NCBI GenBank assembly: GCA_000934665.2
Contig: KZ538591.1
Location: 1-60,157, forward strand
Reading direction: 5' to 3'
Length of the DNA stretch: 60,157 nucleotides
Source: Catajapyx aquilonaris
Taxonomy: Eukaryota
A program made the position numbers and the translations under genes. Under the pieces are notes generated by a model. That model did no database searches. It was not told where the DNA came from and worked only from the letters and a program-made list of their open reading frames with translations. Shown here piece by piece: positions 11,901 through 37,700 of this stretch (position 1 is its first letter; the number at the start of each line of letters is the position of its first letter).

Positions 11901-14900
11901 TAAACTCGAATGACATTTTAAAAAGATTGATACATACACAGCGTGTTTAATAATTTAACTCACATCATTATCGGCAGCATGTACAATTTATTTTGGCATC
12001 CTGAGATGTGAAATGAAGGAAGAGAATTCAAGAGACCAGTTTTTCGTGCACAGACAATGTTATGGAGGAGGAAATGACCCTAAACCCGTGCAAGATATTG
12101 ATCCTAATTTACAAAACAAATTGTCGCAGAGATAGTTTGACACACGCTATTCGCGGCATTCATACATTTGTAGTGAAATAGCATTGTCTCTTTAAATGCA
12201 GCCAGGCGCTCCTAAAAAGAGATCATCTCTTAACGATCAAAAGATCCACACAGACTAAAGAAGAAGAATTCCGACCCCAAAGAGTACTAAATTATTAACT
12301 GCCATTTCTTCAGCCTGATGGTTGGGGTCTTTCTTATGCCGAGGTGGTCGATTGTGATGACGTCAGCGGGCTCATTTTCATTTGACATTCATTGTTCCAG
12401 GTTAAGTCACTGGGAACCTGCTGCGAAATAACGAAAGCTATAGTGCTTCCTCCTGAAAATGTCGTCATTTGCACTATTATTTTGCGTAGCTCTCCTGCAA
12501 AATTAGTTGCATTACACCATGCTATCTATTAAAGAGAGTGTGTCAGAGCTTTTGCAAGAATAGAGCGCTATTTGCATTCCTCTCGTAAGGCCGATTACGT
12601 AACTGAAGTGGAGTAGACCCATGTAAAGGTTGACCTATAACCACCCTCTCCATCATATTTTCACAGTTTCACCTGGTCTGGAAACATTGCAACTATCAAT
12701 AGTCCTCTCCTATTGGTCAATGTCGTTTACTTCCAAACGTTACAGTTACGTTACAGTTTTCAACCATAAAATAGCTATATACGTACTATCACCACATTTC
12801 TTAAGCGACAATCTTAATGAGAAACTGGTCAGAAAACATGGCACTGCAAGGTAGTTAATACATGTAGCCAATAAAACCACTGATTCATTTGTGTTCCCAT
12901 ACTGTATATATTACCCCTTAGGACGTGCTATCGATAACAACTCAGGAACAGAGAGCATTATTGGTCACATTATCCTAATGTTTACATGGTTTAGATTTAG
13001 AACATGCTGCTGTACTGATTCCATGATTGATGGTTCCAGGAAAATGGCGATGCGACCGGGAGGCATTTATCTGACAATGGGTCAGTGGAACGCGAGAAAG
13101 AGAGTGTTCCGCAAGCGAAGCGACGTCGCTCCAGCCTTTCGCCGTCGTTGTCATTTGACGAGAACAAAGAGCGTGGAAACTGGTCCAGCAAACTCGAGTT
13201 CCTTCTGTCCTGTCTGTCGTACGCGGTCGGGCTTGGAAACATATGGCGATTTCCTTACCTCTGCTACAGAAATGGAGGAGGTATACACAAAACCTGCCTA
13301 CGATACCAGTCACAGGTCGAGATCTTACCTTTTCTCCTTTTTCAATGACATATATTGTCGCCTATTCGAATTGTATAATATGCATATTTAGATTGTGAGC
13401 GCAGGTTCTCTAGATAGCTTCTGGTTGGCGATATGTTGCGAACAAAAATCGCGTCTCTCTTTTTAAGGTCGCTGCGATTTTTTGGCGACAAAACGATCTG
13501 GGTGACCTTAATAAATCATACATATCTCAGGGAACATAGATCCGTTCTCTTTCCAGGGTTTCTTTTTCAGATATTTTTGAGGTAAGCCCCCACCAATATA
13601 TCATTGTTTTGAATATCCAGCAGCGTTTCGCCAGCAGAAGTTGTTTCGAGAACCCAAGTTAGTGATTCTTTTTTTGCAAAAAAAAAAACAAAAAAAACAA
13701 AAAAAAAAAAAAAAGTGGAAGTGTTCGGAAGTGAAGTCGAGGTGATCCTTTTCCAGATGTCGGTTTTTTTCAGAGCTGTTGTGCTCTAGTTAAAATTCGG
13801 ACTGGAAAGGAATAGTAATTACCGAGGCTTCGCATCTTGACATTCTGTAATTTTGACGGTTTTGTCTCCAGGAAAAGAAAAAAGAAATGAGACGGACAGC
13901 ACGCCTAAGGTGGCACAACTATATCCTTTACCTACTTTACCCTATATCGTAATTTAATTTTCTAACCATTCTTTAAAATATCCCCTGTACCATTATCGTC
14001 AGAAATATTTTCGTAATTTATTGATTACGAATATCTAATGCTCAAATGAAATTCTGGTAATCTGTCATGGACTATCTATATTAATATTATATTATAGCCT
14101 GTGACCTGTCCAATAATCTGAAACTAATCATATAATTTAACATTTCTGATGATAAGTTCCTTTCAACTTGAAATACACTTTCCTCTTGACCTGATATTGT
14201 GACACGACCCATCTATAAAAGGGTACGATTAGGTCTTAGGTCACAGTGTGGAAGAGGCTTTCCTACCACATTAGGCGGCAAGTTCTAAACAAGTGATAAC
14301 TCAATTTCTGGTTAATTGTGTCAAAAAAGAACTTTGCCACCAGGGAAAGGCTGCTCTGCACTAAAAGGCCCCCAGTCCAATTTGACATTCACCTTTCAAA
14401 TACTGTCGCCATTTTCAAAATTAGTCTAACCATAAGTGTAACGAGATCAATATGCGACAGTATTTAAAGGTCAAGGGTCACCATCAAGGGTGGCAGGTAG
14501 GACCAGGACAACATTTAAAGACAGTATTGTTGCTTACTGCTTGTTACTTTGCTTCCCATGATTTTAATGAGTTGTTTTAACGTTTTCTTTTCACAGGCGC
14601 CTTCTTGATTCCCTACACTTTGATGCTGATTTGTACTGGTCTTCCACTCTTTTTCTTTGAGTTGTCCTTTGGACAGTATGCCAGCGAGGGGCCAATTACC
14701 ATTTGGAAAATTTGCCCCCTGTTCCAAGGTAAGGAGAGTCGGTCCCATCCGAATCTCGCCTCTCAAATAAGGGATAGAGAATTTGAGAGAATTTATGGAA
14801 TGTAAGTGGTTTGTCACACGTTTTCATGTTTGTTCAAAATAGTGTGCAGATCAAAATGAAACCTTGTGTACTTGGAGAAGTCGAAGGAGGATGACTTCAA

Positions 14901-17900
14901 AAAAAATCGTAATTCCAACTCTGTATTTCCACTGCTAACCAGCTGTGTAACTATATGTGATTTCTATTAATTATGCGCTCTATGCAGATTTGGAGACATC
15001 CTCGTGATTATATGGTCAAAATAGCTTACATACAGAAATGCAATAACTGTTCAAAACGTTCTAGAAACATTGTGTTTGACATAAACCTAATATCAGTCTC
15101 TAATAATAACAAGTTGATCAGATACAATGTTTCTTGACATGTTAATAATGTGTGTCACCTTCAGATTATTATTGTCTTTACTGGACCGTTTCTTTCATAA
15201 TTATCTCGTACAGTAATGCTGCGTATCATCATGTGCATTCCTAATGTACACATATACATTGTGTGTTGCAGGTGTAGGTTACGGAATGTTCCTGATCTCC
15301 GTTTTTGTTGGGATCTATTACAACATAATCCTGTCCTGGGCCATTTTCTATCTCTTCTCATCGTTTACTAACGATCTACCCTGGTCTTCGTGCGACAACT
15401 GGTGGAATAGCAAAGGTAACTCGCAGGTTTATCCAAGTGCATGTAAGTAGAATCTAACGTGACCTTGAATAATAGCTTGCAGAAAGTTCGACATGAAAAA
15501 CTGCACTGCTAGAGGTGGTCTGATGAGTTCTAATGGAACTTGTTTCTACCAGTGGAGTGTGACTGAAGAAGACTGGAGCTCTCTGAACGAGAGTAATATC
15601 AAAATGAAAATGCCTGCCGACGAGTATTTCCAGTAAGTAGGATTAAACCTGTGCAATTAACCCGTACCTGAAATTGTGCTAATGCGTATGATTTGTGATG
15701 CAGCAATTTTATGTTGGACATGAGTGAGGGAATCCATGACATTGGAGAAGTCAGATGGAGTTTGGCTCTTTGTCTTCTCCTGGCATGGATCATCGTATTT
15801 GCCGTGTTGCTGAGAGGCATCAAAAGCGTCGGAAAGGTTAGTGCATTATGAACAACTATTATTAGTAGTTATCAGGCGGATAAAAGCATATAGTAACATA
15901 TATCACCCTATTTCAATCGCTCAATAATGTAGTGTAGCCAATAAGCCAAGTGGAAAATGACAGTACAGGCAACTCGAATTGAGCGGGCGACTACCTCCTA
16001 CTATCTGGTGTTACCCCAGCAGATGGTAGTGTCAAAGCGACGTTCCGGCACCGTCTTCACTACGTTCCTTCCTCACCTATCCCAGGAATTGGAGAGACTA
16101 TGCCAGACTTGGCGAATGCACATAGCAAGTGACTTCAAATATTACTCGTCTGATCCTTGGCGTACATGCGGCTTATTTTAATTGGTATGCGATGTAACTG
16201 TTACATGGGCAAAATTTGAGTGAACACCCATAATAATGAATATAGCAGGCAGAGTGCTTTCTGAAAATGACTGATGCACCTCCTGAGTCCTTCTAGTTCC
16301 CTGCTTCCCTGTAACTTTTATATTTCTTCAATATCCCAAGATTTTTAGTTACATACTCGACCGCTGGTACATCCCGGGGTATTTGAAATACCTGCGAGCC
16401 GGTTCTATTCTGGTTACACATAAATATTAGTTTATGTCCTTGGCACCTAATCCACTGAACGCATACCGGTATTTATATCAGTTTGCGGATAAGCAAAATT
16501 TAAAATAACATGTATGTAGCAAGCATTACATGAAGGGTAGAGCCGTAGAGCATAAAGAGTAGAGCTGTAATTTTCTGATATATTAGTTAGGAAAACAATT
16601 AGCTGACATACTGGACTTAATCACAAGCGTAGGGCAGCAGATTATGAGTATGTACAGTACTGTGCTCTTCGGTACCCTTTGATGTACAGTACATGTAAGA
16701 TAAACACGTTGTTTTTCATGTAGCTAATAAACATAGGCATGCTGCATCCCCGGTCTGCGACGGGGTTGCAGCTATTGGGTTATAAGTTGCGAGGGTAGCA
16801 GAAGGCGCGCAAGGTGTCAAGCCCAACAGGTAGAGCGCAGACAGCAGGCATATGTGGGTAGCACCTCCTGCCGTATTCTGGTACCCTGCCACTTACTAGC
16901 TACAAAACGCCGTCCCTGCAACGTCCGCGCAACATTCCACATAAATACTTCTGTCGCAAGTCAGACCGCTTTGTACGAACCGGTATGAACGGCCAGTTTA
17001 GCCGAATTTGATACGAAAATGTCCCGGTTTATTCGTACATTGCGGCAAGGACCGCTACCTGAACATGTTTCTTTAGTTATATCGGTGTACTTAGCGGTTA
17101 AAGTGCATTGAATCCGCAGTGAAGACTTGCCGGTGAACTCCTGCAGCCTTTTGTCATGCTTGCATCTAGGGCAAAAGATGCGACCAACCCGCAACATCTC
17201 CCGCATGTATAGGCATATACGGTACCCGGCCCATACTGATGTAAGAGCCGTTGTCTTATAATAATCGACAAAAATGCGCACGACAATATTATTATGACGG
17301 CAAGGTGCATAATTTACGTAGTTACATATGTGGGATTGATTTATAGATTTAGGCCAGTTATGTACAGTACATGTAATACCAAAATGCAGTTGGTGGCCTG
17401 TGCCTATGCCACCACCTGGCCTATCTTGTTAGCCTGCCAATTTGGTCACATTCCGCTATCCTCTAGCCAACATTGAGCCTACCCCGACTACCTAGGCTGC
17501 AGTTTTAGGAATACCGCGTAAACCACCTCCTGCTGACTTCTGCGCTGTGTGCATGCCGGGACCAAATATTTGGCTCCAACAAAGAAAGCAGGCATGGCCA
17601 TGGCAGGCTTGAATGTGCCGGCACGTGTAGGCGCTGCAAGTGCCAACTCCCTGCCGCACCCCACCTTCTGCCCCCGTTCTGTTGCCCCAGCTGAACCCGC
17701 TCATATTCGTACGCCATGTACTCGACGTCTCTGCCATCCCACCAACCGGGTCTCGTCCATTTCGTCATCAGTGCATTGGACAGATTTTTGCCATGCCTGC
17801 TGGACAACTCCTGCTGTGTTTAGATGCCCTGCTAGACTACACCTCTCTGCTGAAAGAGTCTTGATGGGACATAGAAAAAGAGGGGATTTTTTTCCCCCTC

Positions 17901-20900
17901 CTCTTCAGCATATGTGTAGCACCGATAGCACATGTAACTTTGCTTGTCTTTCCAGGCGGTATACTTCACTGCCCTATTTCCATACATGGTGCTGATTGTA
18001 CTCTTGGTGCGTGCGGCGACTCTTCCCGGATACGTAGATGGTATTCTGTTCTATCTCACACCTGAGTGGAGCAAGTTGGCGGAAGCTGGTGTAAGTGTTG
18101 CGTTGTAATCCGTTGAACAGGTTGGGCAGGGGCAGGGGAGCATATAGTTGTGACTTTGGTGCTATTTAAGGTGTGGGCGGACGCCTGCGTCCAGATCTTC
18201 TTTTCCCTCGGGCCCTGTTGGGGTGGACTCATCACTCTCTCCAGTTACAACAAGTTCAAAAATAACTGTTACAGGTATCACTTGTGTTCATGGTGTTCAG
18301 GCAGTCGTTGATATGTCGTATTAAAGAGGCATGGTGATGTATAATAATGCTTGCTGACATGTATGATTGTCGACAGGAGGGATATTGACACATACAAGGG
18401 ACTTTATATACGTTCGCGGCCTGCCATTGAAGGAGCGGAGTAGTGGTAATCTGACGACGCCATGAAATTGACCTATAAATAAAAATCTTTTAGGTGCTTC
18501 TGCTTCATGCCATAAACTTATATAATGTCCCGTGTATTTGTACCATAAAGTAATGGGCAGTGTCGTAAGAATCTGTGGTGTCAAATATCTCGACCTTATG
18601 TGTGAATAGCAGTCCTCTGCCTTTGGTATCTCACATGCATGCTTTTGATGCCTGAATTCTTAGTTTATTGTGCATCTTTATTATGGTAAAATCCAATTCA
18701 GTTTCTTTATTTTCCAGTGCTAATGTTATTACAGTGGTGCTAATTGCTTAGAAACTATTAATACTATTATGCCTGTATAAGTTACAGTGAAACCTGCTCA
18801 TTACGGACCCTAGGTATAGCGGAAACCTATCCATTGAGGAATTTTTCCTAGGAACGGGCGTATGTATAGGACATGCAATGTATTTTTTGACCGATATTAC
18901 GGAACCTGCCCAACGCAGAAACGGAAGGGATTTGGTCTCCCTTCAAAGAAAATCTCTGTTCATAATGGAAATCAAAAGGTTCACATCAAGGGGGTAACCA
19001 CTTTGGTACTCCGATGTACACCTGCGAGTGGTACTCCCTGGTACTTCTTGAATTTGGTAGTCACAAAAATAGAAACTAAAGCTGGGTTCACTCTGGGCCA
19101 TCGCAGCCCTTCCAGGAGGCCTCTGAGTAACCCTTTTTGGACCGTCCTTTCACCATACTGTGTCTCATAATTGCTGGAATTACTATCGGCTCGTAGCCTT
19201 GAAGAAAGGGGACTATTTTTGGTTGGAAAATGGAAATACAGCGTTCGGGGGGGGGGGGCTTGCACCATATTGAAGGTAAGGTGCTTATTTTTGCTCCCCA
19301 TTTTCCTCTCTCTCTCAGTGGCAAAAAAATCTTAGTAATGTCAAGGTAAAGGTAATGTCCTTGATCTCAATATAGCGGAAACCTATCCATTATGGAAAAA
19401 TTTTAGGGTCTTGTGCGATTCCGTAATCCACAGGTTTCACTTATAGGTTTATAAAAGTAGCTTTGAACATAATATTTTGTTTTATTTTGTTATTTGCATG
19501 ATTTTACTTACGATTTTGGCATAGATTTATGCCCCAGTAATTAACCCACTTCATTGGAAAGAAAATTGTAAGTCACCCAGGAGCAGTTTATCATCTTTAA
19601 CAGCTAAAACTGTCCTAAATCACTTTTTAATCACTCATCATGTAGTTATGAGATTCTTTATCTGCATAAATCCACTGGTGCACACACGGGGGGGGGGGGG
19701 GTNNNNGCTAGATGTCAAGAATGATTGAAAAACTGCTAATATTGGCAACACTGGAATTGTTGGTGAACTTGAAAACCTGGTAGTCAAAACTGTAGTGCAT
19801 CCTAGGGACTCTTTCCAAGAAATGCAAAACACATAGATTGAATATCTGTGGCAAAACAAAGATACTTTCTCTGCTGTCTATAAACAGTGCCAGTGAGAAT
19901 TCTTTGAAACTTGAGATTCCAATAATAAAACCAAGAACAACCAGCAGACAGACCATGCGAAGCAATATTCCTGCAAACAGCATGGAGGAATACTACAGGA
20001 GATGACTGTAAGGGTGTTCCAAGTTCGTGGGTCACTTCTTGATACCTGATATCGCCCGATAGTTATTTTTAGGGGGTCAAATATAGCAGTAGTTATAGAA
20101 TAGGGCACATGGTTAGGGGCACAACAAGCTACAAAAAAATAACGAAAATTTTGTGTGCGCCATTGATAAATCGTTCCCAATATGAATTTTCATTGGACAC
20201 GGACCCAAAAGCTGGTGCATGTTATTGCTCTGTGTGAATCCAGAGATAATCTCAAGGACATCGGTCGTAAATTCAGCTTCATGGCCGGTTTCACCAAGCC
20301 CGGTTTTCATAAAAACCCCGGTTCTTTCAGAAAATTCCTGCAAATAAAATAGGGCTTTTCCGAAAGAACCGAGGTTTTTATGAAAACCAGGCTTGGTGAA
20401 ACTGGCCATTAGGCAGCTTAACAGTTTGATGAGAAACGGACAAGAGGGAGCTTATTTTGTACTTGCAATGGAATAACATGAGTATGCTAGCCATAAGTTA
20501 AACATAATTAATACAACTAGAAGTTTTATGCTAGTGATTTTACATTAGTTAACTGATTTTAAGAATACTTTTATGCACAATGCATAAACACATGGGCCAA
20601 CCATCACTACAACGACACTCCTAACTCCCTTAAAAGTTACCTTACAAATTAGAAGGGAGATGTGGGGACATTGCATTGGCAATGATTTAACCACATGCAT
20701 CATCATTAATTGATGAATAAAAATGAGGAAACAGTATGTACTAGGGAACCAACACTATTGTGGACCAGGATGTGGACTCTGTATTAAGATTTTGCCTATA
20801 GTAAGTGACACATCACTACAAAAAGATGTTCCATCTGCGAGCCTTCCACATTTGAGTATTAAATGCTCTACTGAACGTTATTGAGCTTTGCGTTTAGTAG

Positions 20901-21016
20901 GTTATATGTTTAACTTCAATACTGCTGTACTTATGATTGTCACTTAAGCAATTAAAACAAAGGTAATAATGATGATGATGATGGTGGTGGTGATGATGAT
21001 GATGATGATGATGATG

Positions 21017-21080
<64 letters not shown>

Positions 21081-24000
21081 ATTTATTTGTGGCGATGGAG
21101 TACCACCTGCAATTATACGAGACTGTCACACTTACCAGTGTGAGCTTCAGTTAATCTGCAGTGAAGCAATGGCGAAGACAGTCAGGTCTTTATATTTGAA
21201 ACATAATAATGATATGATGCAACTGTTTTAATACATGTACAGGTTTGGGCTGATGCTGCTGTTCAAATCTTCTTTTCCTTGTCGCCATGCTGGGGTGGGC
21301 TCATCACTTTAGCCAGTTATAATAAGTTTCACAACAACGTACTCAGGTAAATATGATATTTTCTAGCACATATGACAAGCCTACAGTTATAATTACATAT
21401 AGAATTAAGGCCAAATAATTGTAGAGTAACAGTGTGCATTGCATTTCTTATTGCTTGGGCAGTAGTTTGCATTGTCCAGTTTTGTTTATATTAGAGAATG
21501 ACTTTGCTAACAGTGCATACAGTAGTTAAATTCTTTGGTATGTTATGTTGCTTGCTGTGTAATACAGTTTGATGTCTTTTGAGTTATTAGATTCATGGTC
21601 AATGTGTCTAAATTGTGTAGCAAGTGGGGATTTTTCACATCCCACAAGTATACTGTATATGTGCAAGGGTGATGGTAATAGAAGCATTATTTTTTAAATT
21701 TTGGGCATAGTGACCAAAGGACATAAGATTTGCATAGTAGGCCACTAAGGGGTAATTAGGTGTGTTTACATTAGGGGAAGATGGGATTGACATGCAGTTG
21801 AATCTCAATCAAGAGGCAAGCTTGCACTTTGACACTGGAAGTGAGCTGCAGATGAGCTACCCCAGGTGCATCTCAAATTGGCATGCTCCAGACACTTCCT
21901 CGAAGAGCCAGGTGCTGCTATGATACAACCTGACAATGCACTGGACATTTATCTGTGCTTTCATAAGCATTCCAAAAGTGAACTATTCTCTCCTGGGATT
22001 AGCTCTCGGCTTAGGCACAGGCCTGTTTGGGTTTATCTGAGACAGTTACTCAAAGGTTGTCTCAAACACACGCCTCTGGACCACTGTCAGCACAGGTCCC
22101 CTAATGTAAATGCACATGTTGAGTTCCAGTTTTCAATGTAGTCACAGTTATTCTGTGCAAGCTGGCGCTGGTGGACTAGTGGTTAGCGCGCTTGCCTCTG
22201 GTCCCAAAGTCGTGGGTTCGAACCAAGCCGAGGTCGGTGACTTTTCTCCAGGTGGTAGAAAAGTGAGAGTGCGCCTTCCTTCGGAGGGGAAGTAAAGCCA
22301 TCGGTCCCGTGTGCTTGTGACATTGCGCGAGTGCACGTTAAAGATCCCCAGAGTGGCCAAATTTCCAGGAGGAGGACCACCCCCTGGCGTCGGTGTTGAG
22401 CCTTGCGGCAGAAACAGGCCGACGTTAAGCCCCACTGAAAAGTTATTCTGTCCACACATTTGCCTGAGCAGTGAACAAGCTTGCTCATGGTTTCATACTA
22501 TTAATAATAATAATATAATCAGGACCAGGAGATTTTTCTACTGACATTCGCCCCATCTCATCACTCTGATTATCGCACCAATAGTGGCTTCTTTGGGTCA
22601 TGGTAGGCAGAAGAAGCTCCTGCAGAGAGTGAGGGTGGTAAGGTGGCTACCCAAAACTTCCCATATGGTACTCATCTTTGAATGTCATCATATGTTTCTC
22701 TGTACTTATGACATCTAACTCTCACTGTCATTCAAGATCTCATCTTGTGAGTAGGCCTGCCATATTTGATGCAACATAAAGAGACCATTTCATTGGTGCA
22801 GATAATATTTTGAAACTTCTGATGAGGTGGTGAATCAATCACAGGGCTCTCTTGATTATTTCTGTAATGAGACCATGGAAAACTCAGCCATGCATGGTCA
22901 CATGTGTGTGAGATGTGTATGGAGTATTTGTGACTACATCTAAAAATAGTGCTCAACAGCCTGATACCATAAAAATTTTGTCCACCTTGATCATTATTAG
23001 CACCGATATATTTTTTTAAAACTGGGAACCTCTTACTGTCACCATCAACCTTGAAATACAGGGTGAACAAAAAAGAATATCAGGGTTTCATGTGGTCATT
23101 GTGGCTGTAGAAATGTGGATCCTACGTGAGATGAAAGAGCAAGTTTCAAAGATTCATATGGGATGCGACAAAGTTGTTCACCCCCTCTCTCGGTCACGTG
23201 ACAACCCATTTTTCAAACATGGCATCTCCAGAGCAGAAAGTGTTTTGTGTCCTCCAGTTTGCGAAGTGCAAATCAGTAGTTACTGTTCAGAGGGCGTTCC
23301 TGCGACAATTGGGAGGTGATCCCCCATCTGACAACAACATTCTGTGGTGGTACAACCAGTTCCAAGAGACAGGGTACCTCTGCAAAGGCAAGAGTACAGG
23401 ACTCCCTGATGCTTTCCACTTTGTCTTCTGACACATGTGGGTGTCCTGTAGTCTTGCCTTTGCAGAGGTACCCTGTCTCTTGGAACTGGTTGTACCACCA
23501 CAGAATGTTGTTGTCAAATGGGGGATCACCTCCCACTTGTCGCTGGAACGCCCTCTGAACAGTAACTACCGATTTGCACTTTGCAAACTGCAGGACACAA
23601 AACGGTTTCTGAAGATGCCATGTTTGAAAAGTGGAGTTGTCACGTGACTGAGAGAGGGGGGGAACAACTTGGCGCATCCCATATGAATCTCTGAAACTTG
23701 CTCTTTCATCTCAAGTAGGATCCATATTTCTACAGCCAATTACCTAGCCACAATGACCATATGAAACTCCAATATTCTTTTTTGTACACCCTGTATATTT
23801 GTATTGTAAATACACTGTGCATGCAATATAATTATACATATGATCAAATTCAATACGTCTCATGCTTATTAAATTTCTAATTAGGGATGCCCTGACTGTT
23901 GCCACTGGAAACTGCCTGACAAGTTTCTTCGCAGGATTTGTCATATTTGGGATTCTGGGTTTCATGGCCCATGAGCTGGGTGTGCCAGTGAAAGAAGTAG

Positions 24001-26314
24001 CTGCTCAAGGCAAGTTATTATGAAGAAAATTATTTGGTTTATATATCAAATGGCAATTGTATGATTTCCCTCCTCTTAGGTGCTGGATTGGCTTTTATAG
24101 CATATCCTGAAGCTGTAGCGAGGCTACCATTGTCTCCTTTGTGGTCGATTCTCTTCTTCGTGATGCTTCTGACTCTTGGAATGGGCACACAATTCACCGT
24201 CCTGGAAACTGTAGTCACTACAATTGTTGATGAGTGGCCAGACAAATTGAGAGGCAGGAACCACAAGTGAGTCTGCAGAATGCTCTTCATTCATTCATTC
24301 ACAACAATGTGTGTGCAGGGTGTTCTAAAAGATCCACCTGTCCTTATGGATTGAGGCTATCACTTGCGAATTATTGAGATGAAACTGCTTTAAATGATAA
24401 AGGTTGCTTCAATTTCACTGTGTAGATTTCTGCATGTTGACTTTTGCCTTTCAATCCATATGAATTATGGAATATTTTGCAAATGTAAATGGGTGGGGCT
24501 GTAGGCTACCAGAGATCATTGCTAATCTTGCTGATGGTCGTCCAACAGGTGGGTCCTAGGAGGTGCATGCACTTTCATGTACCTATGTGGGCTGAGTATG
24601 TGCACTCAAGGAGGTATGTACGTGTTCCAATTGGTAGACGACCATGCAGCCACGTTTTCAGCTCTCATCATTGGTATGGCTGAAATCTGTGCTGTTTCCT
24701 GGGTGTATGGTGCTGAAAAGTTCTTGGATGACATCAAAGTCATGCTCGGCCACTATCCTCGTCCATACCAGTTTTGGAAGTGGATATGGAAAGTTGGAAC
24801 TCCTCTTTGCATTGTGGTAAGTTCACCTGCAGCTAATCAGTGTTTCTTTTTTTTCCCCCTCGTATTACCTCATACCATATACTGCATATTGCTTGTCTAC
24901 TGACATGTCTTCTACTCCTTTGTAGTTCATCCTGATCTTCACTTGGGTGGACTATCAACCAACCTCTTATGGAGATTATGTGTTTCCCATGTGGGCCAAT
25001 GTTTTGGGTTGGATACTGTCAGCAACCTCTGTGTCAATGCTGCCCATTGTTGCCATGGTCAAACTCTACAGGGAAACTGGGCCATTTATGCTGGTTAGTT
25101 CATTATCAGGTTCATCTTGTCATTGTTGCTGTGAAATAGAGGTGCAGGCATAATGGCCCACACATATCAGTCATCTTTGTTTGTCACTGTCGTGAAATTT
25201 TAAAGGGAACTTCCCTTTGCATAATAATATTGGCTATTATTTTGAATAATATTTGACTCCAATTACTGACATTAGATTATTTTGGTGTAAGAGTCTTCTG
25301 TGTCTTGGGAACACCATTCACTCGAAGTAACTTATGGTATTTATTGACAGAGGGTGAAAAAACTTACCAAGCCAACAGATTCTTGGGGTCCAGCTCTCCA
25401 GATCCACAGAGCTGAAGTAGGCAAACCAAAGCATATTGATTCAACTGTTCCTCTCGCAGCTCACATGCAAGGTAATATTTCTTAGCATGCAATTCTCTTG
25501 TGCATGACTATCATACATTATGTTATCCTGAAGAGGTTGGTTGCGAATGGTTAAACTCATTCCCCTCAATAGTAATTTTTATTATAGTTAAATTATGTTT
25601 ACAATACAATATTACAGGAATATGCAGGGGTTAGACAAAATAACGGGGCCCCCTGCAAAAAGCAGGTCCTCCATTGTACTCAAAAACTGGAAAAGTTACG
25701 GAGATGGCTTTTACTGATTTTTGAATCTCTGTCGATGTACATTTACGGACGTGAAGATGACACAAAAATCCCAAGAGGAGGGGGAGAAAGAAATGACTAA
25801 CGACACCCCCCAGACCCCATTTTTGACCAAAGTGTCCCACCCTTTTTATTTGAAAACGAAAACAGTTACAGATATGAACTGCACTGGGTCTTTAAGTTCT
25901 ATCGATGTCACTTTATGTGGTATAGAGACTGACCGAAATTACCGACCGGGGGGAGGGGGGGGGGGGATAGAAACGGAACCCCCCTTCCCCAGCACTAAAT
26001 CTGAGAAGAGGTTGGACAAAGTAATGTATAGTAAGTTGGGTCGAATTTTCGTCCCACTGCTAGTTACTACCAACTTAGTAGAGGTGCCACAGCCTTCCAC
26101 CTCTAAGGTCCCGAGTTCGGTCCCCAGATCGGACAGAGGATACTTATGTGGATAGAGTTCCGATGGGCTCTCCATGTTCGCGTGGGTTTTCTTGGGGTTC
26201 TCCTGTTTCCTCCCACTATCAAAATCCATCACAGCCAAGGCAATGATTGAAGTCAAGTAATTTATTAAAAAGATGATCCCCTAAAAAGCCCAAGGAGGTT
26301 TATCACGGGGTATC

Positions 26315-26376
<62 letters not shown>

Positions 26377-28031
26377 TACTACCAACTTAGTAGTACCATA
26401 TTTGGCACTGGTACAGCTAAGTTAGCATTAATTAGCAGTGGGACGAAAATTTTCCATTGTTTGCATTCAAGCAGTGCCGGGGAAAGGGGGTGAGGTTTTC
26501 CCCGCCCCCTGTTGGTAATTTTGGTACCTCTCTGTACCACTGACATCGATGGAGTTTCAAATTCCAGTAAAGTTCATATCATTCTGTAACTATTTTCATT
26601 TTCAAATGAAAAGAGTGAGACACTCTGGTTAAAAAATGGGTCTGGGAGGGTGTTGCTAGTCTTTTGTTTCTCCCCCTCCTCTTGGGATTTTTGTGTCATC
26701 TTCATGTCAGTAAATGTATATCGATAGAGCTTCAGAAATCAGTAAAAGTCATCTCTGTAACTTATCCAGTTTTCGAGTACATTGGAGGAAAAAATTCACC
26801 TGCTTTTTGCAGGGGCCCCCCATTATTTTGTCCAGCCCCTGTACACATGCAACATGTGACTATGATGATCTAAGCGTTTTTATAAAGTAATGCCAACTCT
26901 TTACGAGATAGTCATGATCCAATAGGTTGACTACATCATCTTCATAGTTAACATCAGTATTGTGCTTATGTGCGTGTGTGACGGATGCCGCAGCATCCAG
27001 GAATCTCATTGGACATGCGACTAATGTGGAGGATTCGATGATTCCAAAATGATCCCAATATGCTTGTGTAGTGAATTTTGAAAGTTGCTAATCATTTGTA
27101 ATGCATTGTCTTACGTGATTGTGTGACATCTGTCCACCTTCCCTTTTTTAAAAAAACTAAATTGATTGGAAATGGGTGTGAAATACCTATTTCATAATGG
27201 TGAAGAAGTCATTGTTTTATATCTTTTTGAGATGGTATTGTTGCAGTTTCATGTACCATATGGAATGAAAATGACCTCACATCTGTATTGGTGGAAATAA
27301 TTTATTGGGTCTGTCTCCCTCCTCCCCTCATCCCCCCGTGGCCTTGTTATTTTAATTCAATATTATGACAATATATTTGGTATTGTTTCATTTAAAACTC
27401 AAAATAATCAGCCACTAATGTATTTGGGTCACTCACTTATCAGCTGGGACCCTGACTGTTGAGTAGATGAGTTGTTCCTATTGAAAGACTGCACATTTTC
27501 ATTAGCCAATGGCATGCAAGTCCATTTGGAATCTCAGGTATGTGGCGAGCTGATATTGGAGTGAGCTGCAATATTGCCACCAATACAGTTTGGAGCTGAC
27601 TTTGTTCCACCTCAATATTTTGCAGTTTACTCCCTATATAATTATTATATCTTGTTATATACAGTAAAACGTTGATATAACGCTCCTGCATGTAACGCTT
27701 TCCTGCTTTTAACGCCCCTTATTTCTGGTCCCTTGATCATTTCCATAAGGTAAATTTTCCCTCATATAATGCTATCCCGCTTATAACACTACTTTTGGGC
27801 AGTCCCTTGAAGAGTGTTATATCGAGGTTTTACTGTAATTTTATGAGTGCGTTTTTGGTGAGATCGAGGTTTTACTGTCATTGTGATCCTAATTTGTGAC
27901 CTTTTCTAGATGATGACCAAGACAGCAATGGACTCTGTACTGTGTATGAAAACAATGACGACAACAATAGTGAGGATGGTGGGCTCAGGATGAAGGTTGA
28001 GGTGATGAAGCAACATGAAACAGGACTGTAA
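8878..28031 (+). CDS. GlyT: SLC6 Na+/Cl- dependent glycine transporter-like gene, whole model: 14 coding exons per isoform, ~686 aa, exon 8 mutually exclusive
   Basis: Phase-consistent exon chain 8878-8901 (tentative), 13040-13280, 14597-14728, 15272-15415, 15476-15632, 15704-15836, 17956-18090, [18171-18274 or 21243-21346], 23885-24009, 24080-24266, 24549-24816, 24926-25093, 25351-25471, 27910-28031 totals 2061 nt. SLC6 motifs [40 protein letters not shown]; GlyT-type TM6 WGG and C-terminal WGPAL. Confidence 0.92.
13040..13280 (+). CDS. GlyT: SLC6 exon 2 (N-terminus and TM1)
   Basis: ttccag| ENGDATG...[37 protein letters not shown] |gtatac. Confidence 0.93.
14597..14728 (+). CDS. GlyT: SLC6 exon 3 (TM2)
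   Basis: tcacag| [44 protein letters not shown] |gtaagg. Confidence 0.95.
15272..15415 (+). CDS. GlyT: SLC6 exon 4 (TM3)
   Basis: ttgcag| [48 protein letters not shown] |gtaact. Confidence 0.95.
15476..15632 (+). CDS. GlyT: SLC6 exon 5 (extracellular loop 2)
   Basis: aatag| [52 protein letters not shown] |gtaagt; second EL2 Cys, N-glycosylation sequons and a PxxEYF motif; phases 1 and 2 fit the neighbours. Confidence 0.88.
15704..15836 (+). CDS. GlyT: SLC6 exon 6 (TM4)
   Basis: atgcag| [44 protein letters not shown] |gttagt. Confidence 0.93.
17956..18090 (+). CDS. GlyT: SLC6 exon 7 (TM5)
   Basis: ttccag| [45 protein letters not shown] |gtaagt. Confidence 0.95.
18171..18274 (+). CDS. GlyT: SLC6 mutually exclusive exon 8A (TM6, [10 protein letters not shown])
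   Basis: tttaag| [35 protein letters not shown] |gtatca; 104 nt, phase 0/2, no stops. Confidence 0.88.
18785..19442. mobile_element. pogo/Tigger-like MITE between exons 8A and 8B
   Basis: TA-CAGTGAAACCTG...CAGGTTTCACTT-TA, with subterminal repeat TATAGCGGAAACCTATCCATT at both ends. Confidence 0.7.
20281..20409. mobile_element. Short hairpin MITE
   Basis: ATGGCCGGTTTCACCAAGCC...GGCTTGGTGAAACTGGCCAT with ~50-bp arms. Confidence 0.7.
20964..21078. repeat. Compound (ATG)n(ATA)n microsatellite
   Basis: Trinucleotide runs visible directly. Confidence 0.95.
21243..21346 (+). CDS. GlyT: SLC6 mutually exclusive exon 8B (TM6, [10 protein letters not shown])
   Basis: gtacag| [35 protein letters not shown] |gtaaat; 104 nt, phase 0/2, no stops. 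Confidence 0.9.
22157..22440 (+). mobile_element. tRNA-derived SINE (family C; body recalls tick Ruka / Meta-SINE type)
   Basis: A box GGACTAGTGG, B box GGTTCGAACC; body GCACGTTAAAGATCCCC...GACGTTAAGCCCC; TSD AGTTATTCTGT at 22146-22156 and 22441-22451; second copy at 46764-47046. Confidence 0.85.
23059..23793. mobile_element. Palindromic element made of two head-to-head left ends of a Tc1/mariner-type transposon with a DUF4817-like HTH
   Basis: TA-CAGGGTG...CACCCTG-TA; both arms encode ...[19 protein letters not shown]...[24 protein letters not shown], one on each strand. Confidence 0.88.
23885..24009 (+). CDS. GlyT: SLC6 exon 9 (TM7), followed by a GC donor
   Basis: aattag| [42 protein letters not shown] |gcaagt. 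Confidence 0.93.
24080..24266 (+). CDS. GlyT: SLC6 exon 10 (EL4, TM8)
   Basis: tcttag| [62 protein letters not shown] |gtgagt. Confidence 0.95.
24549..24816 (+). CDS. GlyT: SLC6 exon 11 (TM9-TM11)
   Basis: caacag| [54 protein letters not shown]...[14 protein letters not shown] |gtaagt. Confidence 0.93.
24926..25093 (+). CDS. GlyT: SLC6 exon 12 (TM11-TM12)
   Basis: ttgtag| [56 protein letters not shown] |gttagt. Confidence 0.93.
25351..25471 (+). CDS. GlyT: SLC6 exon 13 (C-terminal tail)
   Basis: tgacag| [40 protein letters not shown] |gtaata. Confidence 0.9.
25625..26841. mobile_element. Tc1/mariner-type long-TIR MITE containing a SINE
   Basis: CAGGGGTTAGACAAAATAA...TTATTTTGTCCAGCCCCTG-TA; arms ~25625-26000 and ~26470-26841 are inverted. 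Confidence 0.8.
26082..26375 (+). mobile_element. 5'-clipped tRNA SINE with V-domain-like core (family D)
   Basis: B-box-like GAGTTCGGTCCC; core CGTGGGTTTTCTTGGGGTTCTCCTGTTTCCTCCCAC; (TTA)n tail; 18-bp TSD TTACTACCAACTTAGTAG at 26064-26081 and 26376-26393. Confidence 0.82.
27662..27835. mobile_element. pogo-like MITE
   Basis: TA-CAGTAAAACGTTGATATAAC...GTTATATCGAGGTTTTACTG-TA. Confidence 0.75.
27910..28031 (+). CDS. GlyT: SLC6 probable last coding exon (acidic tail ending ETGL*)
   Basis: ttctag| [40 protein letters not shown]; phase 1 matches the donor at 25472. Confidence 0.7.
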
Positions 28032-31063: not shown

Positions 31064-31682
31064 ATGGAGCTAAGGTTTGCACTGATAGAGTGCCGTGCTA
31101 CCGTTGCTTACATGTGTTGTGCTAGTTATGGTGGTATGTGTGTATTGTTGCAGTGATTAGTGAATGCTGGCAATACTCCAGTGATGGACAGGGATCAGAG
31201 AATTGGACAGTAGTGTTTTCATTTTTCAGGCGGATTAAATTTCAACTTTTGCATAAAAATGGGCTGATGAAAGGAGGAGTGATCAGGTATGCTCTTGGAG
31301 GCCCTTCAGAAGTTATCTCACATCTATATAGGTGGAAAGGTCATGTACAGCTGCAAGTTTTTTTGTTGCCCTCAAAGGAGAGGGGTATAGTGAGGGGGAG
31401 TTATGGGGGGTGCACTTTCGGTACTTCGGAAGGGCTTGTGTTAGGTGGACTTCGGCTCGAGAGTACCAGCCTGATGCAGTAACTACCGTGACATTTTCAC
31501 CAATACAGATGTGAGGAAAATTATGAGCCCAAATGATGTTTTGCTACAGTGAAACTAACTTACATCATCAGCCACAATTTCTTTATACAGATATAATAAA
31601 CCATGGCTGATGAATAAGTGGGGTGAGCACATTGAAATTTTTTTGACTTATTCAGACATTTTTTGTCTTGTGACATCAGTGT

Positions 31683-31740
<58 letters not shown>

Positions 31741-34700: not shown

Positions 34701-37700
34701 AACCTCATTGATCTGAGTAATAATTGAAGTTTTCCGAACTTCATAGCATTGCTTGGTTCAAGTGTGGGTTATAGCCAGTTTAATCTGCTGATATACCAAT
34801 CGTGAGTCATGGCATCTAACAAGGGAACGACCAAGATGGGTTTCAACCAAATCGGAGGTGACTGACCTTGGTCGTTCCCTTGTAGGTCGATATTGAGGAT
34901 ACAGTAGAACTCCAATATTATCCGACTCCTCTGTTCATCCGACCATCCTGTTCCACCCATAAATGCATGTTTTCTCATCAAATACTGTAATGCAGGCCTA
35001 CTAAGCATTTGTTTTGTATTGCCTTAGTTGAATTTTAAACAGCAGAGTGAATACGTAAAAGATAAATACTTCACTATTTCTTAGAAATACGTAATATTGT
35101 ACATTTTTTCATGATTTTATATGCTTTTTGTTGTGTTTTTCGTTGCTCCTCGGATTATCCGACCTTTTATGTTATCCAACAATGCTCTGGTCCCGTGGGT
35201 GACTGATAATCAAGGTTCTATTGTAATTACTTTTGCTTGCTGTAGGAAAATGCCCCCACATTGCAAGGCATGAAAGAAGAGAGGTTTCTTATTAATTTCC
35301 CGATTAGAAACAGTAGTTGTCATGATCAGAAATTGTCAGTAATATACTGTATTACTGCTCATAAAGAGGCATGCCGGTGTAGTCAAGGTGGACCAGTTTT
35401 TAGAAATGCATGATCTGGTGGCTATACTGCCGTCAGATGTAAGAAGACCGTAACTCAAAAACCAGTAAGGGTGAAAGTCGCATGCATGCCCTGCACTAAT
35501 TCTCTCTGAGTCAAGGGGGGATTAGTGCAGGGCATGCATGCGACTTTCACCCTTACTAGTTTCTGAGTTATGGTCTTCTTACATCTGAAGGCAGTATACC
35601 GGCATGCCGGTATAAGGCGAGGTTTTCACATAAGTTACAGTGTTACACTATCCTTTCCGAACTTGACATTTGCCTGGAAACCATAATTCACGTAAAGGCT
35701 ATCGAAAAGGCACATTTTCTGAATAGAGTACCCATACCACATATTGTTTTCAATTGCAGTGTCTGGCAATAATCTCTATTTAAACAGTGTGTTGGAGCAG
35801 GGGGTTCCCCTGTCAAAGCAGGCTGACGATGAGATCGGTCGCACACACTACATTTTTTATATGCACTGTGCAACAGAACTTGCATATTCTCACAGCCTGG
35901 ACACTCACCCATTTTCATTGGAACATTATTTTAGTATGGTACCAGAAGCATTCAAAATTTTTTGGCGAAGATCAAAATGACGGAAATCTACCTTGGTTAT
36001 TGCGGCATGCCGGCCACCTCCGGGTTATACTGGCATGCTGGTCGACCTCATTTTATACCGGCATGCTGCTTTATGAGAGGTAATACCTATAATGAATGGG
36101 GATTCTGTTTAATTCCATAAATGACATAATGAAATTGATTTCCAAAGTCGCACCATTGCTTACTTATGGTGCAAGGAGGTGTTGCGAGATCAGTTTCAGC
36201 TCATATCACAATAATTTGTAGTGAGGTTGTTCCTAATATTACTGGATGAAAAAGTGAAATTCAGTTTTTGACTACTTATATCTCCAACTAAGAAATCTGG
36301 ATTTGAAAATCTTTTAATTCTCACCTTTTTGCAACTTAAAATAAGCACAGCAAGCGTTCTGAGGAGCATTGTAGGAGTTTTAGAAAAATATTATGAAAGT
36401 TTTAGAGTTCCACTACAAGTAGCATTTCATAAAATTAGTTATATTGCAACTTGGTTTGCATGATGTGTCAGCCCAATACAATGGGAATCCAGTAATACTC
36501 CATTAATGTCAATTTATTTGAACTGCACACTGTGACCTCAGAGGTCAAAGGTATCACATATCTAAAAATTGCGAATTTTCTGTCATTGCCATAAAAATGG
36601 CTTTGGCTAGGATTGCCTCTAAACTGTCTTTTTGGACTAAGTGGATTTCTCTTGTAGGACCACGATATGGTTACTAGATATTAGAAATTATTGAAATCAA
36701 AGGATACCAGCCAGGATTGCCCTCCCCCCGCCCCCGATAGCCACGATATTTAGTGGAATTAATAATGGCAGCTCCTAAAGTAAAACCCAGGTTTGTTATA
36801 TCTGTTCCAATGAAAATGTGGATTTCAAATTCTCAATTTTGCAGTTTTTTTCAGTTTTAAAGTTATCACAGGAGAGCTAGGAAAGTTAGATTATTTTAAT
36901 TTAATTTTTCAAGTTGCCAATTTGAAGTAGTTATACATTTCTGTCCAAAATAAATACGTTACGAGAAAAATAGATTATAATAAATACAATTAATAGAAAG
37001 ATTGCCAGTAAAGGAGTGCATTTGGCAGCTGCCAAATTGGCCAGTGTAGAGTTTTAATATGGTATTATTTTCAGCTGTGGTTCACAAGACCAATAAAAAA
37101 GAAGTTGAGCTACTTGTCCAGCAACAGTTTGGCCTTGACATACCAGATGCATCAGATAGAGAATGGTTGGAATCATTCTTGACTGTTGGACAAGAAGTTG
37201 AATTTGAGATCACCAATGTTGATATCAAGTCGAAGTGCCCTTTCATTAGAGGAAGGCTAATCTGGTTGAGTATTAATTAGTAATTACACTAATACATGAT
37301 AAAATGTGAATTATTGACTTAAATGCCGATGTCTTGCTGTCTTACAGCTTTGATAAGGCAGAATCACAGTTGGGAAGTGAAGAGGAGATTCCCTGCGGTC
37401 AAGTGCCAAGGCGAGAATTGGAAAATGGTGGCTATGGTAGTGGCACCACAAGCCCAATTCATGAAGGCAAAAGAAGTGATAGAGCTGAAAGTGTGAAGTC
37501 GGGATGTAAGAGGAAAAGAGTAAATGAAACAGAGAATTTGGAAGCTGAGACTGAAGTAAAGTTGTTTTCAAGAACTCCTTCTGAAGTGGCAAAACTGATA
37601 GCAAACTGTGGTGATCAGCCTAGCACCAAACCCAAACCCATTGCTCAAGGCAAAACAAAAAAGCACCGTACATCACCTGCTGCACAAGGACCTAGTCTTC

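What the first reader, a model, noticed from the sequence alone, without database searches (positions are those of the whole stretch)
18171..21346. Mutually exclusive TM6 exons that switch the GlyT1/GlyT2 selectivity residue (Gly vs Ser) within one glycine-transporter gene
Seen: two 104-nt exons with the same phases (0/2) and intact AG/GT sites lie between the TM5 and TM7 exons. 8A encodes [35 protein letters not shown] (Gly codon 18210-18212); 8B encodes [35 protein letters not shown] (Ser codon 21282-21284). Including both or neither shifts the frame. Only 6 of 34 complete codons change the amino acid, while 15 of the other 28 differ synonymously and the flanking introns are unrelated, indicating an old duplication kept under purifying selection. 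Established: this unwound part of TM6 lines the SLC6 substrate site; vertebrate GlyT1 has SL-G-CAWGG and GlyT2 has SL-S-AAWGG, and that Gly/Ser position (human GlyT2 S479) determines whether sarcosine is transported. Inference: this animal may make a GlyT1-like (broader, N-methyl/imino substrates) and a GlyT2-like (stricter glycine) carrier from one gene by splicing, where vertebrates use two paralogs. I do not know of a published description but cannot check.
Basis: partly seen in the sequence, partly recalled or inferred. Interest (0 to 1): 0.88.

Follow-up and report, generated by a model that had tools for sequence, protein, structure and literature searches.

The report
Twin exons toggle glycine-transporter pocket residue
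An invertebrate glycine-transporter-like gene carries two alternative copies of the exon that lines its substrate pocket, one coding glycine and one serine at the spot that decides sarcosine acceptance in vertebrate carriers, but use of the glycine copy in RNA is not yet shown.

Summary
Two 104-nt exons (18171-18274 and 21243-21346) sit between the TM5 and TM7 exons of a single SLC6 gene. Both have AG/GT sites. They share 74/104 bases. Of 34 codons, 13 are identical, 15 synonymous and 6 replaced, including Gly versus Ser at the residue aligned to GlyT1 G319 / GlyT2 S479. Either exon alone keeps a 598-codon frame open. Both together, or neither, give premature stops.

Synonymous sites are saturated (pS 0.79) while pN is 0.16, and the similarity ends at the exon borders. 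That points to an old duplication with both copies constrained.

The rest of the protein is GlyT2-like. The glycine, Na1, Na2 and Cl site residues and the TM10 glutamate of the third sodium site are kept. The Gly exon would therefore give a natural "S479G" form, not a GlyT1 copy.

Weak points:
- The one spliced-contig run confirms seven other introns but shows no junction at either TM6 exon.
- No relative has the pair: 0 of 24 informative metagenome loci and 0 of 30 protein clusters. None of these relatives is close.

Most likely this is a lineage-restricted mutually exclusive exon pair (confidence 0.55). It is a new variant of a known kind.

The parts
13040..13280 (+). Exon with TM1 (first coding exon seen in the window; the start codon lies further upstream and was not located)
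   Evidence: Open frame and AG/GT. PDB phmmer of 13160-13279 hits GlyT2 best, E 1.6e-17, with the AVGLGN motif kept.
14597..14728 (+). Exon with TM2 (holds the Tyr and Glu that correspond to GlyT2 Y225 and E240)
   Evidence: AG/GT and frame. Residue mapping is by counting on from the alignment, so it is an inference.
15272..15415 (+). Exon with TM3
   Evidence: Spliced joint 15413>15474 (GT..AG with cut +2) in run X1. Frame. Tyr at the GlyT2 Y279 position from the ranges.
15476..15632 (+). Exon for extracellular loop 2
   Evidence: Joints 15413>15474 and 15632>15704 in X1. Frame.
15704..15836 (+). Exon with TM4
   Evidence: Joints 15632>15704 and 15834>17954 in X1.
17956..18090 (+). Exon with TM5, directly upstream of the pair
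   Evidence: Joint 15834>17954. X1 contig 3 ends at 18092, the last base shared by 8A, 8B and the intron (my reading, table 8).
18171..18274 (+). Exon 8A, TM6, Gly form (motif SLGPCWGG). Donor GTATCA. It lies 80 nt after the TM5 exon.
   Evidence: No RNA junction seen.
18210..18212 (+). Gly codon GGG, aligned to GlyT1 G319 / GlyT2 S479
18275..21242 (.). 2968-nt intron between the two alternative exons. It holds a poly-G run with a 4-N gap (19689-19706), an inverted repeat (20276-20414) and a GAT/ATT microsatellite (20957-21090).
21243..21346 (+). Exon 8B, TM6, Ser form (motif SLSPCWGG). Donor GTAAAT.
   Evidence: This is the form carried by 72 of the 105 distinct TM6 segments among the retrieved relatives, which were fetched with these two exons as queries.
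21282..21284 (+). Ser codon TCG at the same position
23885..24009 (+). Exon with TM7 (Asn and Ser of the Na1 and Cl sites), followed by a GC-AG intron
   Evidence: Joint 24007>24078 in X1. Frame.
24080..24266 (+). Exon with TM8
   Evidence: Joints 24007>24078 and 24266>24549. GlyT2 is the best PDB hit, E 1.9e-19.
24549..24816 (+). Exon with TM9-10, including the Glu aligned to GlyT2 E640
   Evidence: Joints. Alignment.
24926..25093 (+). Exon with TM11-12
   Evidence: Joints 24815>24925 and 25092>25350.
25351..25400 (+). Start of the C-terminal exon (its end was not determined)
   Evidence: Joint 25092>25350. Sequence read.

Best explanation
The gene is a GlyT2-like SLC6 transporter of an arthropod-type invertebrate. 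Its 104-nt TM6 exon was duplicated in tandem long ago. The two copies are spliced in a mutually exclusive way. Because 104 is not a multiple of three, transcripts with both or neither carry premature stops and are expected to be removed.

The result is two carriers that are identical except for six residues of TM6. One of the six is the pocket residue. Ser (8B) is the commonest form among the retrieved relatives. Gly (8A) is the derived form. By analogy with GlyT2 S479G/S481G and GlyT1 G305S, the Gly form should have a larger pocket that tolerates N-methylated glycine (sarcosine), and possibly altered ion or substrate kinetics.

Shown here: the exon anatomy, the frame logic, the constraint on both copies, and the residue equivalence.

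Inferred: that 8A is actually spliced in, that choice is regulated, that NMD enforces exclusivity, and any difference in substrates.
For: Anatomy and frame.

Constraint:
- pS is 0.785 (saturated) against pN 0.164.
- In 100,000 simulations each, at most 6 residue changes with no stop never occurred if all 30 differences were neutral. The probability was 0.006 if 15 were neutral.
- All 21 invariant columns of the TM6 alignment are kept in both exons.

Residue equivalence: GlyT1 has SLGCAWGG and GlyT2 has SLSAAWGG at position 14.

Role of the residue: passages read in PMC9564218 and section 6 of PMC12685064.

Backbone: the glycine, Na1, Na2, Cl and Na3 site residues are conserved.

Recurrence: the same position varies among protostome relatives as separate genes. 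Of 105 distinct TM6 segments, 72 have S, 23 have G and 8 have A. One amphipod (Trinorchestia) carries both a G gene and an S gene. This shows the site is a recurrent target of diversification.

Expression: the flanking exons are expressed and spliced (seven joints), so one of the two TM6 exons must be used.
Against: - No RNA junction to or from either TM6 exon appears in the only run found.
- The pair is absent from all 24 metagenome loci where both flanking exons are visible. It is also absent from the 165 TM6-bearing members of 30 protein clusters, including RefSeq isoform sets of Daphnia, Artemia, barnacles, shrimps, spiders, ticks, scorpions, horseshoe crabs, nemerteans and oysters.
- 8A has a weaker-looking donor (GTATCA). 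It has a Cys at a position that is Ala in the G- and S-type segments tallied (95 of 95). Its GC3 is 0.74 against 0.45-0.60 in the other exons.
- In GlyT2, S471G lowered glycine uptake, so the Gly form need not be a better or broader carrier.
- No arthropod orthologue's substrate was checked here. 'Glycine transporter' rests on homology.
Confidence: 0.55

Rival explanations
1. Only 8B is used. 8A is an unused or barely used pseudo-exon. It is either a relic of duplication or a TM6 exon captured fairly recently from a diverged Gly-type paralogue elsewhere in the genome, so its intact frame and sites reflect youth at this site rather than selection here.
For: - No RNA junction for 8A.
- The pair is absent in all relatives examined.
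- 8A's GC3 of 0.74 differs from the rest of the gene, and its donor looks weaker.
- It has a Cys where the 95 G- and S-type segments tallied have Ala.
- Gly-type genes exist as separate genes in other arthropods.
Against: - A relic that decayed neutrally is very unlikely given 28 of 34 residues kept at saturated synonymous divergence (P 0.006 or less).
- Capture would need a 104-nt exon to land in the correct intron, strand and phase with working AG and GT, 80 nt after the TM5 exon.
- No other SLC6 sequence lies in the 60-kb window.
- The apparent nucleotide closeness of 8A to Gly-type exons from metagenomes is explained by their high GC3.
Confidence: 0.25
2. 8A is a 'poison' exon. Its inclusion together with 8B shifts the frame and sends the transcript to decay, tuning transporter level rather than making a second protein.
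For: Inclusion of both exons gives a stop inside 8B. A weak donor is typical of regulated exons.
Against: A poison exon needs no coding constraint. Yet 8A keeps every invariant TM6 residue and shows pN far below pS.
Confidence: 0.08
3. Assembly artefact. The 4-N gap at 19703-19706 joins the 5' half of one paralogue (ending in 8A) to the 3' half of another (starting with 8B), so each real gene has a single TM6 exon.
For: A gap lies between the two exons. No RNA contig in the tables shown bridges exon 6 to exon 8. X1 contig depths differ: 6.97 upstream against 23.2 downstream.
Against: - The gap follows a homopolymer G run, and an X1 contig stops at the same place, which suggests a sequencing problem rather than a scaffold join.
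- The N- and C-terminal halves have the same best relatives at similar identity, 60-71%.
- The two halves join into one complete, in-frame 12-TM protein with no exon repeated or missing apart from TM6.
Confidence: 0.07

Closest known systems
Vertebrate GlyT1 (SLC6A9) and GlyT2 (SLC6A5) paralogues
   Same: The same TM6 position carries Gly in GlyT1 and Ser in GlyT2. Swapping it moves sarcosine acceptance (PMC9564218 passage; PMC12685064 section 6). The rest of the glycine and ion sites are conserved in the window gene.
   Different: Vertebrates use two genes that also differ in Na+ stoichiometry (TM10 Glu versus Met). Here one gene with a GlyT2-like TM10 Glu would supply both pocket forms by splicing. 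The neighbouring residues are Pro-Cys, not Ala-Ala or Cys-Ala.
Gly-type and Ser-type GlyT-like genes of other arthropods (malacostracans, sea spiders, copepod-like metagenome contigs)
   Same: The same SLGPCWGG / SLSPCWGG alternation at the same site, within the same gene clade.
   Different: There the two forms are separate genes, or a single gene with one form. No annotated isoform set or genomic locus examined has both exons in one gene.
Mutually exclusive homologous exons from tandem exon duplication in other transporters and channels
   Same: Same-length, same-phase neighbouring exons that replace one membrane segment. The C. elegans ABC transporter mrp-1 has four such exons (PMC4165533 passage). 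The general class is described in PMC8373072, PMC9741552 and PMC9013439, of which I saw only search listings and abstract openings. From recall, not from any call: SLC7A2 CAT-2A/2B, SLC25A3 exon 3A/3B, and insect para, RDL and GluCl.
   Different: None of these is an SLC6 carrier, and none toggles this pocket residue. Here exclusivity would rest on frame (104 nt). No sign was found of steric hindrance, U12/U2 incompatibility or a docking/selector RNA pairing.
Known GlyT1 and GlyT2 splice variants
   Same: Alternative splicing of glycine transporter genes.
   Different: From recall: the vertebrate variants (GlyT1a-e, GlyT2a/b) change the N- or C-termini, not TM6. In the 30 invertebrate clusters examined, the TM6 segment did not differ between isoforms of any one gene.

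Membership tests
Mutually exclusive exon pair from tandem exon duplication | Two neighbouring homologous exons of equal length and phase | tested here: met
   Both are 104 nt with phases 0/2 and share 74/104 bases. The direct repeat is confined to the exons.
Mutually exclusive exon pair from tandem exon duplication | Both copies have usable splice sites and an open frame | tested here: met
   AG and GT flank both exons and neither has a stop. 8A's donor GTATCA looks weaker. No splice-site scoring was run.
Mutually exclusive exon pair from tandem exon duplication | Including both or neither is incompatible with a functional product | tested here: met
   Both gives a stop inside 8B. Neither gives a stop in the next exon.
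Mutually exclusive exon pair from tandem exon duplication | Each exon is seen alone in mature mRNA | tested here: inconclusive
   One run (X1) of unrecorded kind was found. Seven other introns are confirmed by joints, but none at either TM6 exon.
Mutually exclusive exon pair from tandem exon duplication | Both copies under purifying selection | tested here: met
   pN 0.164 against pS 0.785. Neutral-decay simulations give P of 0.006 or less.
Mutually exclusive exon pair from tandem exon duplication | Pair conserved in related species | tested here: inconclusive
   0 of 24 loci with both flanks visible and 0 of 30 protein clusters have it. The nearest relative is only 69% identical, and no genome of the same species or a close relative is held.
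SLC6 glycine transporter, GlyT2-like | Closest solved relatives are glycine transporters | tested here: met
   GlyT2 is the best PDB hit for 5 of the 6 exon peptides tested: TM1, 8A, 8B, TM8 and TM9-10. The TM3 exon hits DAT and NET slightly better.
SLC6 glycine transporter, GlyT2-like | Residues that bind glycine, Na1, Na2 and Cl- in the GlyT2 structure | tested here: met
   The residues listed in PMC12685064 section 6 were mapped through. G204, N205, A200, V201, Y225, Y279, Q465, F468, S469, W474, N501, S505, L566 and T570 are all kept. G198 is Ser here (a backbone contact). S471 is the toggled site. Y225, N501 and S505 were mapped by counting, not by a printed alignment.
SLC6 glycine transporter, GlyT2-like | Glu in TM10 (GlyT2 E640) and Glu in TM2 (E240) of the third Na+ site | tested here: met
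   Glu aligns with E640. The TM10 motif, with Glu at that position, was matched 124 times among the retrieved relatives, always with Glu. E240 was mapped by counting.
SLC6 glycine transporter, GlyT2-like | Transports glycine with Na+ and Cl- | not testable with these tools
   Needs uptake or current assays.
GlyT1-type carrier (claimed for the 8A isoform) | Gly at the TM6 pocket position | tested here: met
   8A has SLG and GlyT1 has SLG.
GlyT1-type carrier (claimed for the 8A isoform) | Met instead of Glu at the TM10 Na3 position (2 Na+ coupling) | tested here: not met
   The shared TM10 exon has Glu. The GlyT1 Met is stated in PMC12685064 section 6.

The most novel reading that the evidence does not exclude
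One gene switches, by mutually exclusive splicing, the single pocket residue that separates sarcosine-accepting from sarcosine-rejecting glycine carriers. It does this on a three-sodium GlyT2-like backbone. This would be a splice-level solution to the functional split that vertebrates, malacostracans and sea spiders reached by gene duplication. It would also be the first case of a substrate-site exon switch in an SLC6 transporter.
Probability: 0.35. Interest if true: 0.7.

Novelty: new variant of a known kind. Interest (0 to 1): 0.55.

Why it matters
If both exons are used, this is a natural experiment. Two carriers would differ only in six TM6 residues, and the known selectivity residue is one of them.

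- It would show that a substrate-site switch in SLC6 can be delivered by splicing rather than by paralogues.
- It would give a clean pair of cDNAs to test how Gly versus Ser at this site affects sarcosine or N-methyl tolerance, glycine affinity, and Na1/Cl- coupling on a GlyT2-like background.
- It would add a case of convergent diversification at one site, by exon duplication here and by gene duplication in other arthropods and vertebrates.

If 8A is unused, the finding reduces to an unusually well-preserved duplicated exon.

Tried and rejected
**RNA evidence.** The look-up of sequencing runs listed no RNA holder. It returned one run (X1) of unrecorded kind that holds 0.48 of the words. In read laying there is no joint row at either TM6 exon. 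The bin holding 8A (17904-18320, depth 2.32) is fully accounted for by contig 3 (139 letters at depth 6.97), so no cover of 8A was laid. The bin holding 8B has depth 1.06, but the tables do not say where in the bin. From table 8 I compute that contig 6 (1041 nt) carries about 19 unplaced letters upstream of 23883. These should come from whichever TM6 exon it joins, but that loose end is among the 13 not shown. Both caps are used.

**Own genome.** None is held.

**Protein searches.** No hit was 100% identical, so this species is not in the collection. Ciona and Owenia top hits with two TM6 segments are fused tandem genes, not tandem exons.

**Isoform sets.** 30 clusters were examined, and 165 of 189 listed members carry the segment. 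None shows alternative TM6. Within-cluster variants co-vary with the flanking exons, so they are species differences.

**Metagenome scan.** 80 loci were kept of 152 confirmed. 0 have a second full TM6 exon. The loci divide as follows:

| Category | Loci |
|---|---|
| Both flanking exons visible | 24 |
| Continuous (no intron around TM6) | 16 |
| Downstream flank only | 21 |
| Upstream flank only | 15 |
| TM6 exon alone | 4 |

Apparent second hits were read-through into introns. L025 has short partial repeats only.

**Genome-contig scan.** 5 bacterial NSS loci, irrelevant.

**Lead that 8A belongs to an old Gly-type lineage.** 8A shares 84/102 nt with L005 against 72/102 with 8B. I rejected this as a lineage signal. 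Those loci have GC3 of 0.9, and GC3 correlates with codon identity to 8A (r 0.59) among Ser-type loci too.

**Exclusivity mechanisms considered and rejected.**
- Steric hindrance: the intron between the exons is 2968 nt.
- U12/U2 incompatibility: 8A's donor GTATCAC resembles the U12 donor as I recall it but departs at two core positions, and I saw no U12-like branch site before 23885. This was by eye only.
- Docking/selector pairing: 14 inverted pairs were found in 17950-24010. None links the two exons' flanks convincingly, and most belong to a foldback element.

**Chimera check.** The N- and C-terminal halves have the same best relatives.

**Our earlier findings.** Nothing was on record.

**Literature.** Six full-text searches were run. 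Four looked for prior descriptions and found none of alternative TM6 exons in any SLC6 gene. The library holds open-access papers and bioRxiv only. Supplements were not opened.

Full report
**What is there.**

Reading the stated coordinates confirms two 104-nt segments, 18171-18274 (8A) and 21243-21346 (8B). Each is preceded by AG and followed by GT. They share 74 of 104 bases. Over 34 complete codons, 13 are identical, 15 differ synonymously and 6 change the residue. Codon 14 is GGG (Gly, 18210-18212) in 8A and TCG (Ser, 21282-21284) in 8B.

An independent repeat search finds the same pair as a direct repeat of 109 nt at 72% identity (18169-18277 / 21241-21349). The similarity ends 2-3 nt outside the exons. 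tblastn of the gene's own protein against the whole 60-kb window finds one SLC6 gene only, and only its TM6 segment is present twice.

**The gene.**

Six-frame reading, splice-site inspection and spliced contigs of one public run give these exons on the + strand:
- 13040-13280
- 14597-14728
- 15272-15415
- 15476-15632
- 15704-15836
- 17956-18090
- 8A or 8B
- 23885-24009 (followed by a GC-AG intron)
- 24080-24266
- 24549-24816
- 24926-25093
- a further exon starting at 25351

Seven introns are confirmed by GT..AG (one GC..AG) joints in run X1: 15413>15474, 15632>15704, 15834>17954, 24007>24078, 24266>24549, 24815>24925 and 25092>25350.

With 8A or 8B alone the frame is open for 598 codons. With both there is a stop inside 8B. 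With neither there is a stop in the next exon. The start codon lies upstream of 13040 and was not located.

**Is it more than a decayed copy?**

By Nei-Gojobori counting, the proportion of synonymous differences is 0.785, which is saturated. The non-synonymous proportion is 0.164. The 13 non-synonymous base differences are packed into six codons, and the other 28 codons keep their residue.

I ran simulations of 100,000 replicates each, starting from 8B.
- If all 30 differences had fallen neutrally, the mean would be 18 residue changes, and at most 6 changes without a stop never occurred.
- If 15 were neutral, the probability is 0.006.
- If 10 were neutral, the probability is 0.23.

Both exons keep all 21 invariant columns of an alignment of 14 TM6 fragments. 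An old duplication with selection on both copies is therefore the simplest reading.

8A is the more derived copy.
- It has Cys where all 95 G- and S-type TM6 segments tallied have Ala.
- Its GC3 is 0.74 against 0.45-0.60 for the other exons. With only 34 codons this is weak evidence.
- Its donor is GTATCA against GTAAAT for 8B.

**What the residue is.**

phmmer against PDB sequences puts both peptides on GlyT2 first and GlyT1 next. In the printed alignments GlyT2 reads SLSAAWGG, with the Ser at 479 of a 797-residue chain. GlyT1 reads SLGCAWGG, with the Gly at 319 of a 652-residue chain. Both align with position 14 of 8A and 8B.

Passages I read in PMC9564218 say that S481G/A lets GlyT2 carry sarcosine and that G305S abolishes it in GlyT1. 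Section 6 of PMC12685064 says the Ser/Gly difference is the only pocket difference, giving volumes of 39 against 46 cubic angstroms. It also says the Ser side chain binds glycine's amino group, Na1 and Cl-, and that S471G lowered uptake.

**What kind of carrier.**

I mapped the residues listed in that section onto the window's exons through.
- The glycine-site, Na1, Na2 and Cl residues are all kept. One exception is G198, which is Ser here and makes a backbone contact. The other is the toggled site itself.
- The TM10 glutamate of the third sodium site is present. This residue is E640 in GlyT2 and Met in GlyT1. The TM10 motif, with Glu at that position, was matched 124 times among the retrieved relatives, always with Glu.
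- A Gly in place of the usual TM8 Asp is general for the protostome clade, not a defect of this gene.

Three residues (Y225, N501, S505) and E240 were mapped by counting, not from a printed alignment.

Both isoforms therefore share a GlyT2-like backbone. The 8A form is best described as a natural S479G-type variant, not a GlyT1 equivalent.

**Relatives.**

The three protein searches found no identical protein. The spliced protein was built only inside scripts. It is 67-69% identical to scorpion, spider, horseshoe-crab and barnacle genes, and 64-66% to Daphnia genes.

A FastTree of 49 named relatives plus the window protein puts it inside the arthropod clade.
- It sits next to barnacles and malacostracans with support 0.71.
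- The mandibulate grouping has support 0.85.
- Arthropods plus a priapulid have support 0.97.

I chose the 49 sequences by hand from the named hits. Insects were absent from the hits.

Among 105 distinct TM6 segments retrieved with the two exons as queries, 72 carry Ser, 23 Gly, 8 Ala and 2 others. The Ser form (SLSPCWGG) is found across annelids, molluscs, nemerteans, brachiopods, chelicerates, branchiopods and barnacles. The Gly form (SLGPCWGG) occurs as separate genes in malacostracans, sea spiders, a copepod and unnamed fragments. At least one amphipod has both a Gly gene and a Ser gene. The site is thus a recurrent point of diversification, elsewhere by gene duplication.

**Is the pair conserved?**

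Not in anything I could reach.
- In 30 protein clusters, 165 of 189 listed members carry the segment. No gene shows alternative TM6. Isoforms differ elsewhere, and the few variants track species.
- A metagenome scan kept 80 loci of 152 confirmed.
- None of the 80 has a second full TM6 exon.
- In 24 of the 80, both flanking exons are visible with one TM6 exon between them, with introns up to 3.2 kb.
- The 104-nt TM6 exon with these borders is itself a widely conserved unit in those loci.

The nearest locus is only 69% identical outside TM6, and no genome of this species is held. The test therefore does not reach the depth at which an old but lineage-restricted pair would show.

**RNA.**

One run of unrecorded kind holds the gene as spliced contigs. 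It shows that the flanking exons are expressed and spliced. Contig 3 ends at 18092, which is the last base shared by 8A, 8B and the intron. That is what a branch in an assembly graph would give, but from a single study it is only a hint. No joint touches either TM6 exon. What this leaves open is set out under Tried and rejected.

**Mechanism.**

Exclusivity can rest on frame alone, since 104 nt is not a multiple of three. The 2968-nt intron rules out steric hindrance. I saw no convincing U12-type signals (by eye) and no selector/docking pairing. Regulated choice by splicing factors, with NMD clearing double and skipped forms, is inferred and not shown.

**Rivals.**
- An unused or captured pseudo-exon (0.25). 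The absence of RNA and of relatives with the pair favours it, as do 8A's odd composition and donor. The constraint statistics count against it, and so does the need for an exact landing in phase.
- A poison exon (0.08). It fits the frame logic but not the coding constraint.
- A mis-join at the 4-N gap (0.07). It is weakened by the poly-G context, by equal affinities of the two halves, and by the complete, non-redundant exon set.

**Novelty.**

Four full-text searches looked for prior descriptions. They found no account of alternative TM6 exons in an SLC6 gene within the open-access library. Mutually exclusive homologous exons are a well-known device, for example C. elegans mrp-1. I therefore file this as a new variant of a known kind, with moderate interest until junction reads exist.

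Noticed in passing
window 23056-23796: Nested inverted repeats (arms up to 178 nt, 88-94% complementary) form a roughly 740-bp foldback, MITE-like element in the intron between 8B and the TM7 exon. An ORF on the minus strand inside it has a weak helix-turn-helix DUF4817 match (E 3e-4, below the cut-off).
   Followed up: partly
window 24010-24079: A GC-AG intron (donor GCAAGT) is confirmed by a spliced contig joint in run X1.
   Followed up: yes
window 19689-19706: A homopolymer G run is followed by a 4-N gap. An X1 contig also stops there, which suggests a sequencing difficulty rather than a scaffold join.
   Followed up: partly
window 20957-21090 and 26285-26390, 31680-31740: Long GAT/ATT-type trinucleotide microsatellites read as poly-Asp/Asn/Ile runs in ORF lists. 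One lies about 150 nt upstream of 8B.
   Followed up: no
window 18171-18274: The GC content at third codon positions is 0.74 in 8A, against 0.50 in 8B and 0.45-0.60 in the other ten exons. This is unexplained. With 34 codons it is about 2.4 SD from the gene mean.
   Followed up: partly
L025 4223-4568; L024 3190-3667; L026 2063-2403: Metagenome contigs of a Ser-type relative carry short tandem partial repeats of the TM6 exon start (three copies within 350 nt) or of the TM7 exon start (two to three copies). They could be micro-duplications or assembly artefacts.
   Followed up: no
P0001, P0002 (Ciona savignyi), P0003 (Owenia fusiformis): Database proteins of 753-1623 residues hold two full transporter units. 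They are fused predictions of tandem genes, which inflated their scores in the exon search.
   Followed up: yes
protein set (TM8 motif): Protostome GlyT-like proteins carry Gly where vertebrate GlyT2 and most SLC6 carriers have Asp in the TM8 'LGLD(S/T)' motif (for example LGLGTQF in 59 proteins against LGLDTMF in 49).
   Followed up: partly
window 37310-37984: A 225-codon open frame on the + strand with a long Lys/Glu-rich tail has no Pfam family above the cut-off. It is possibly part of a neighbouring gene.
   Followed up: no
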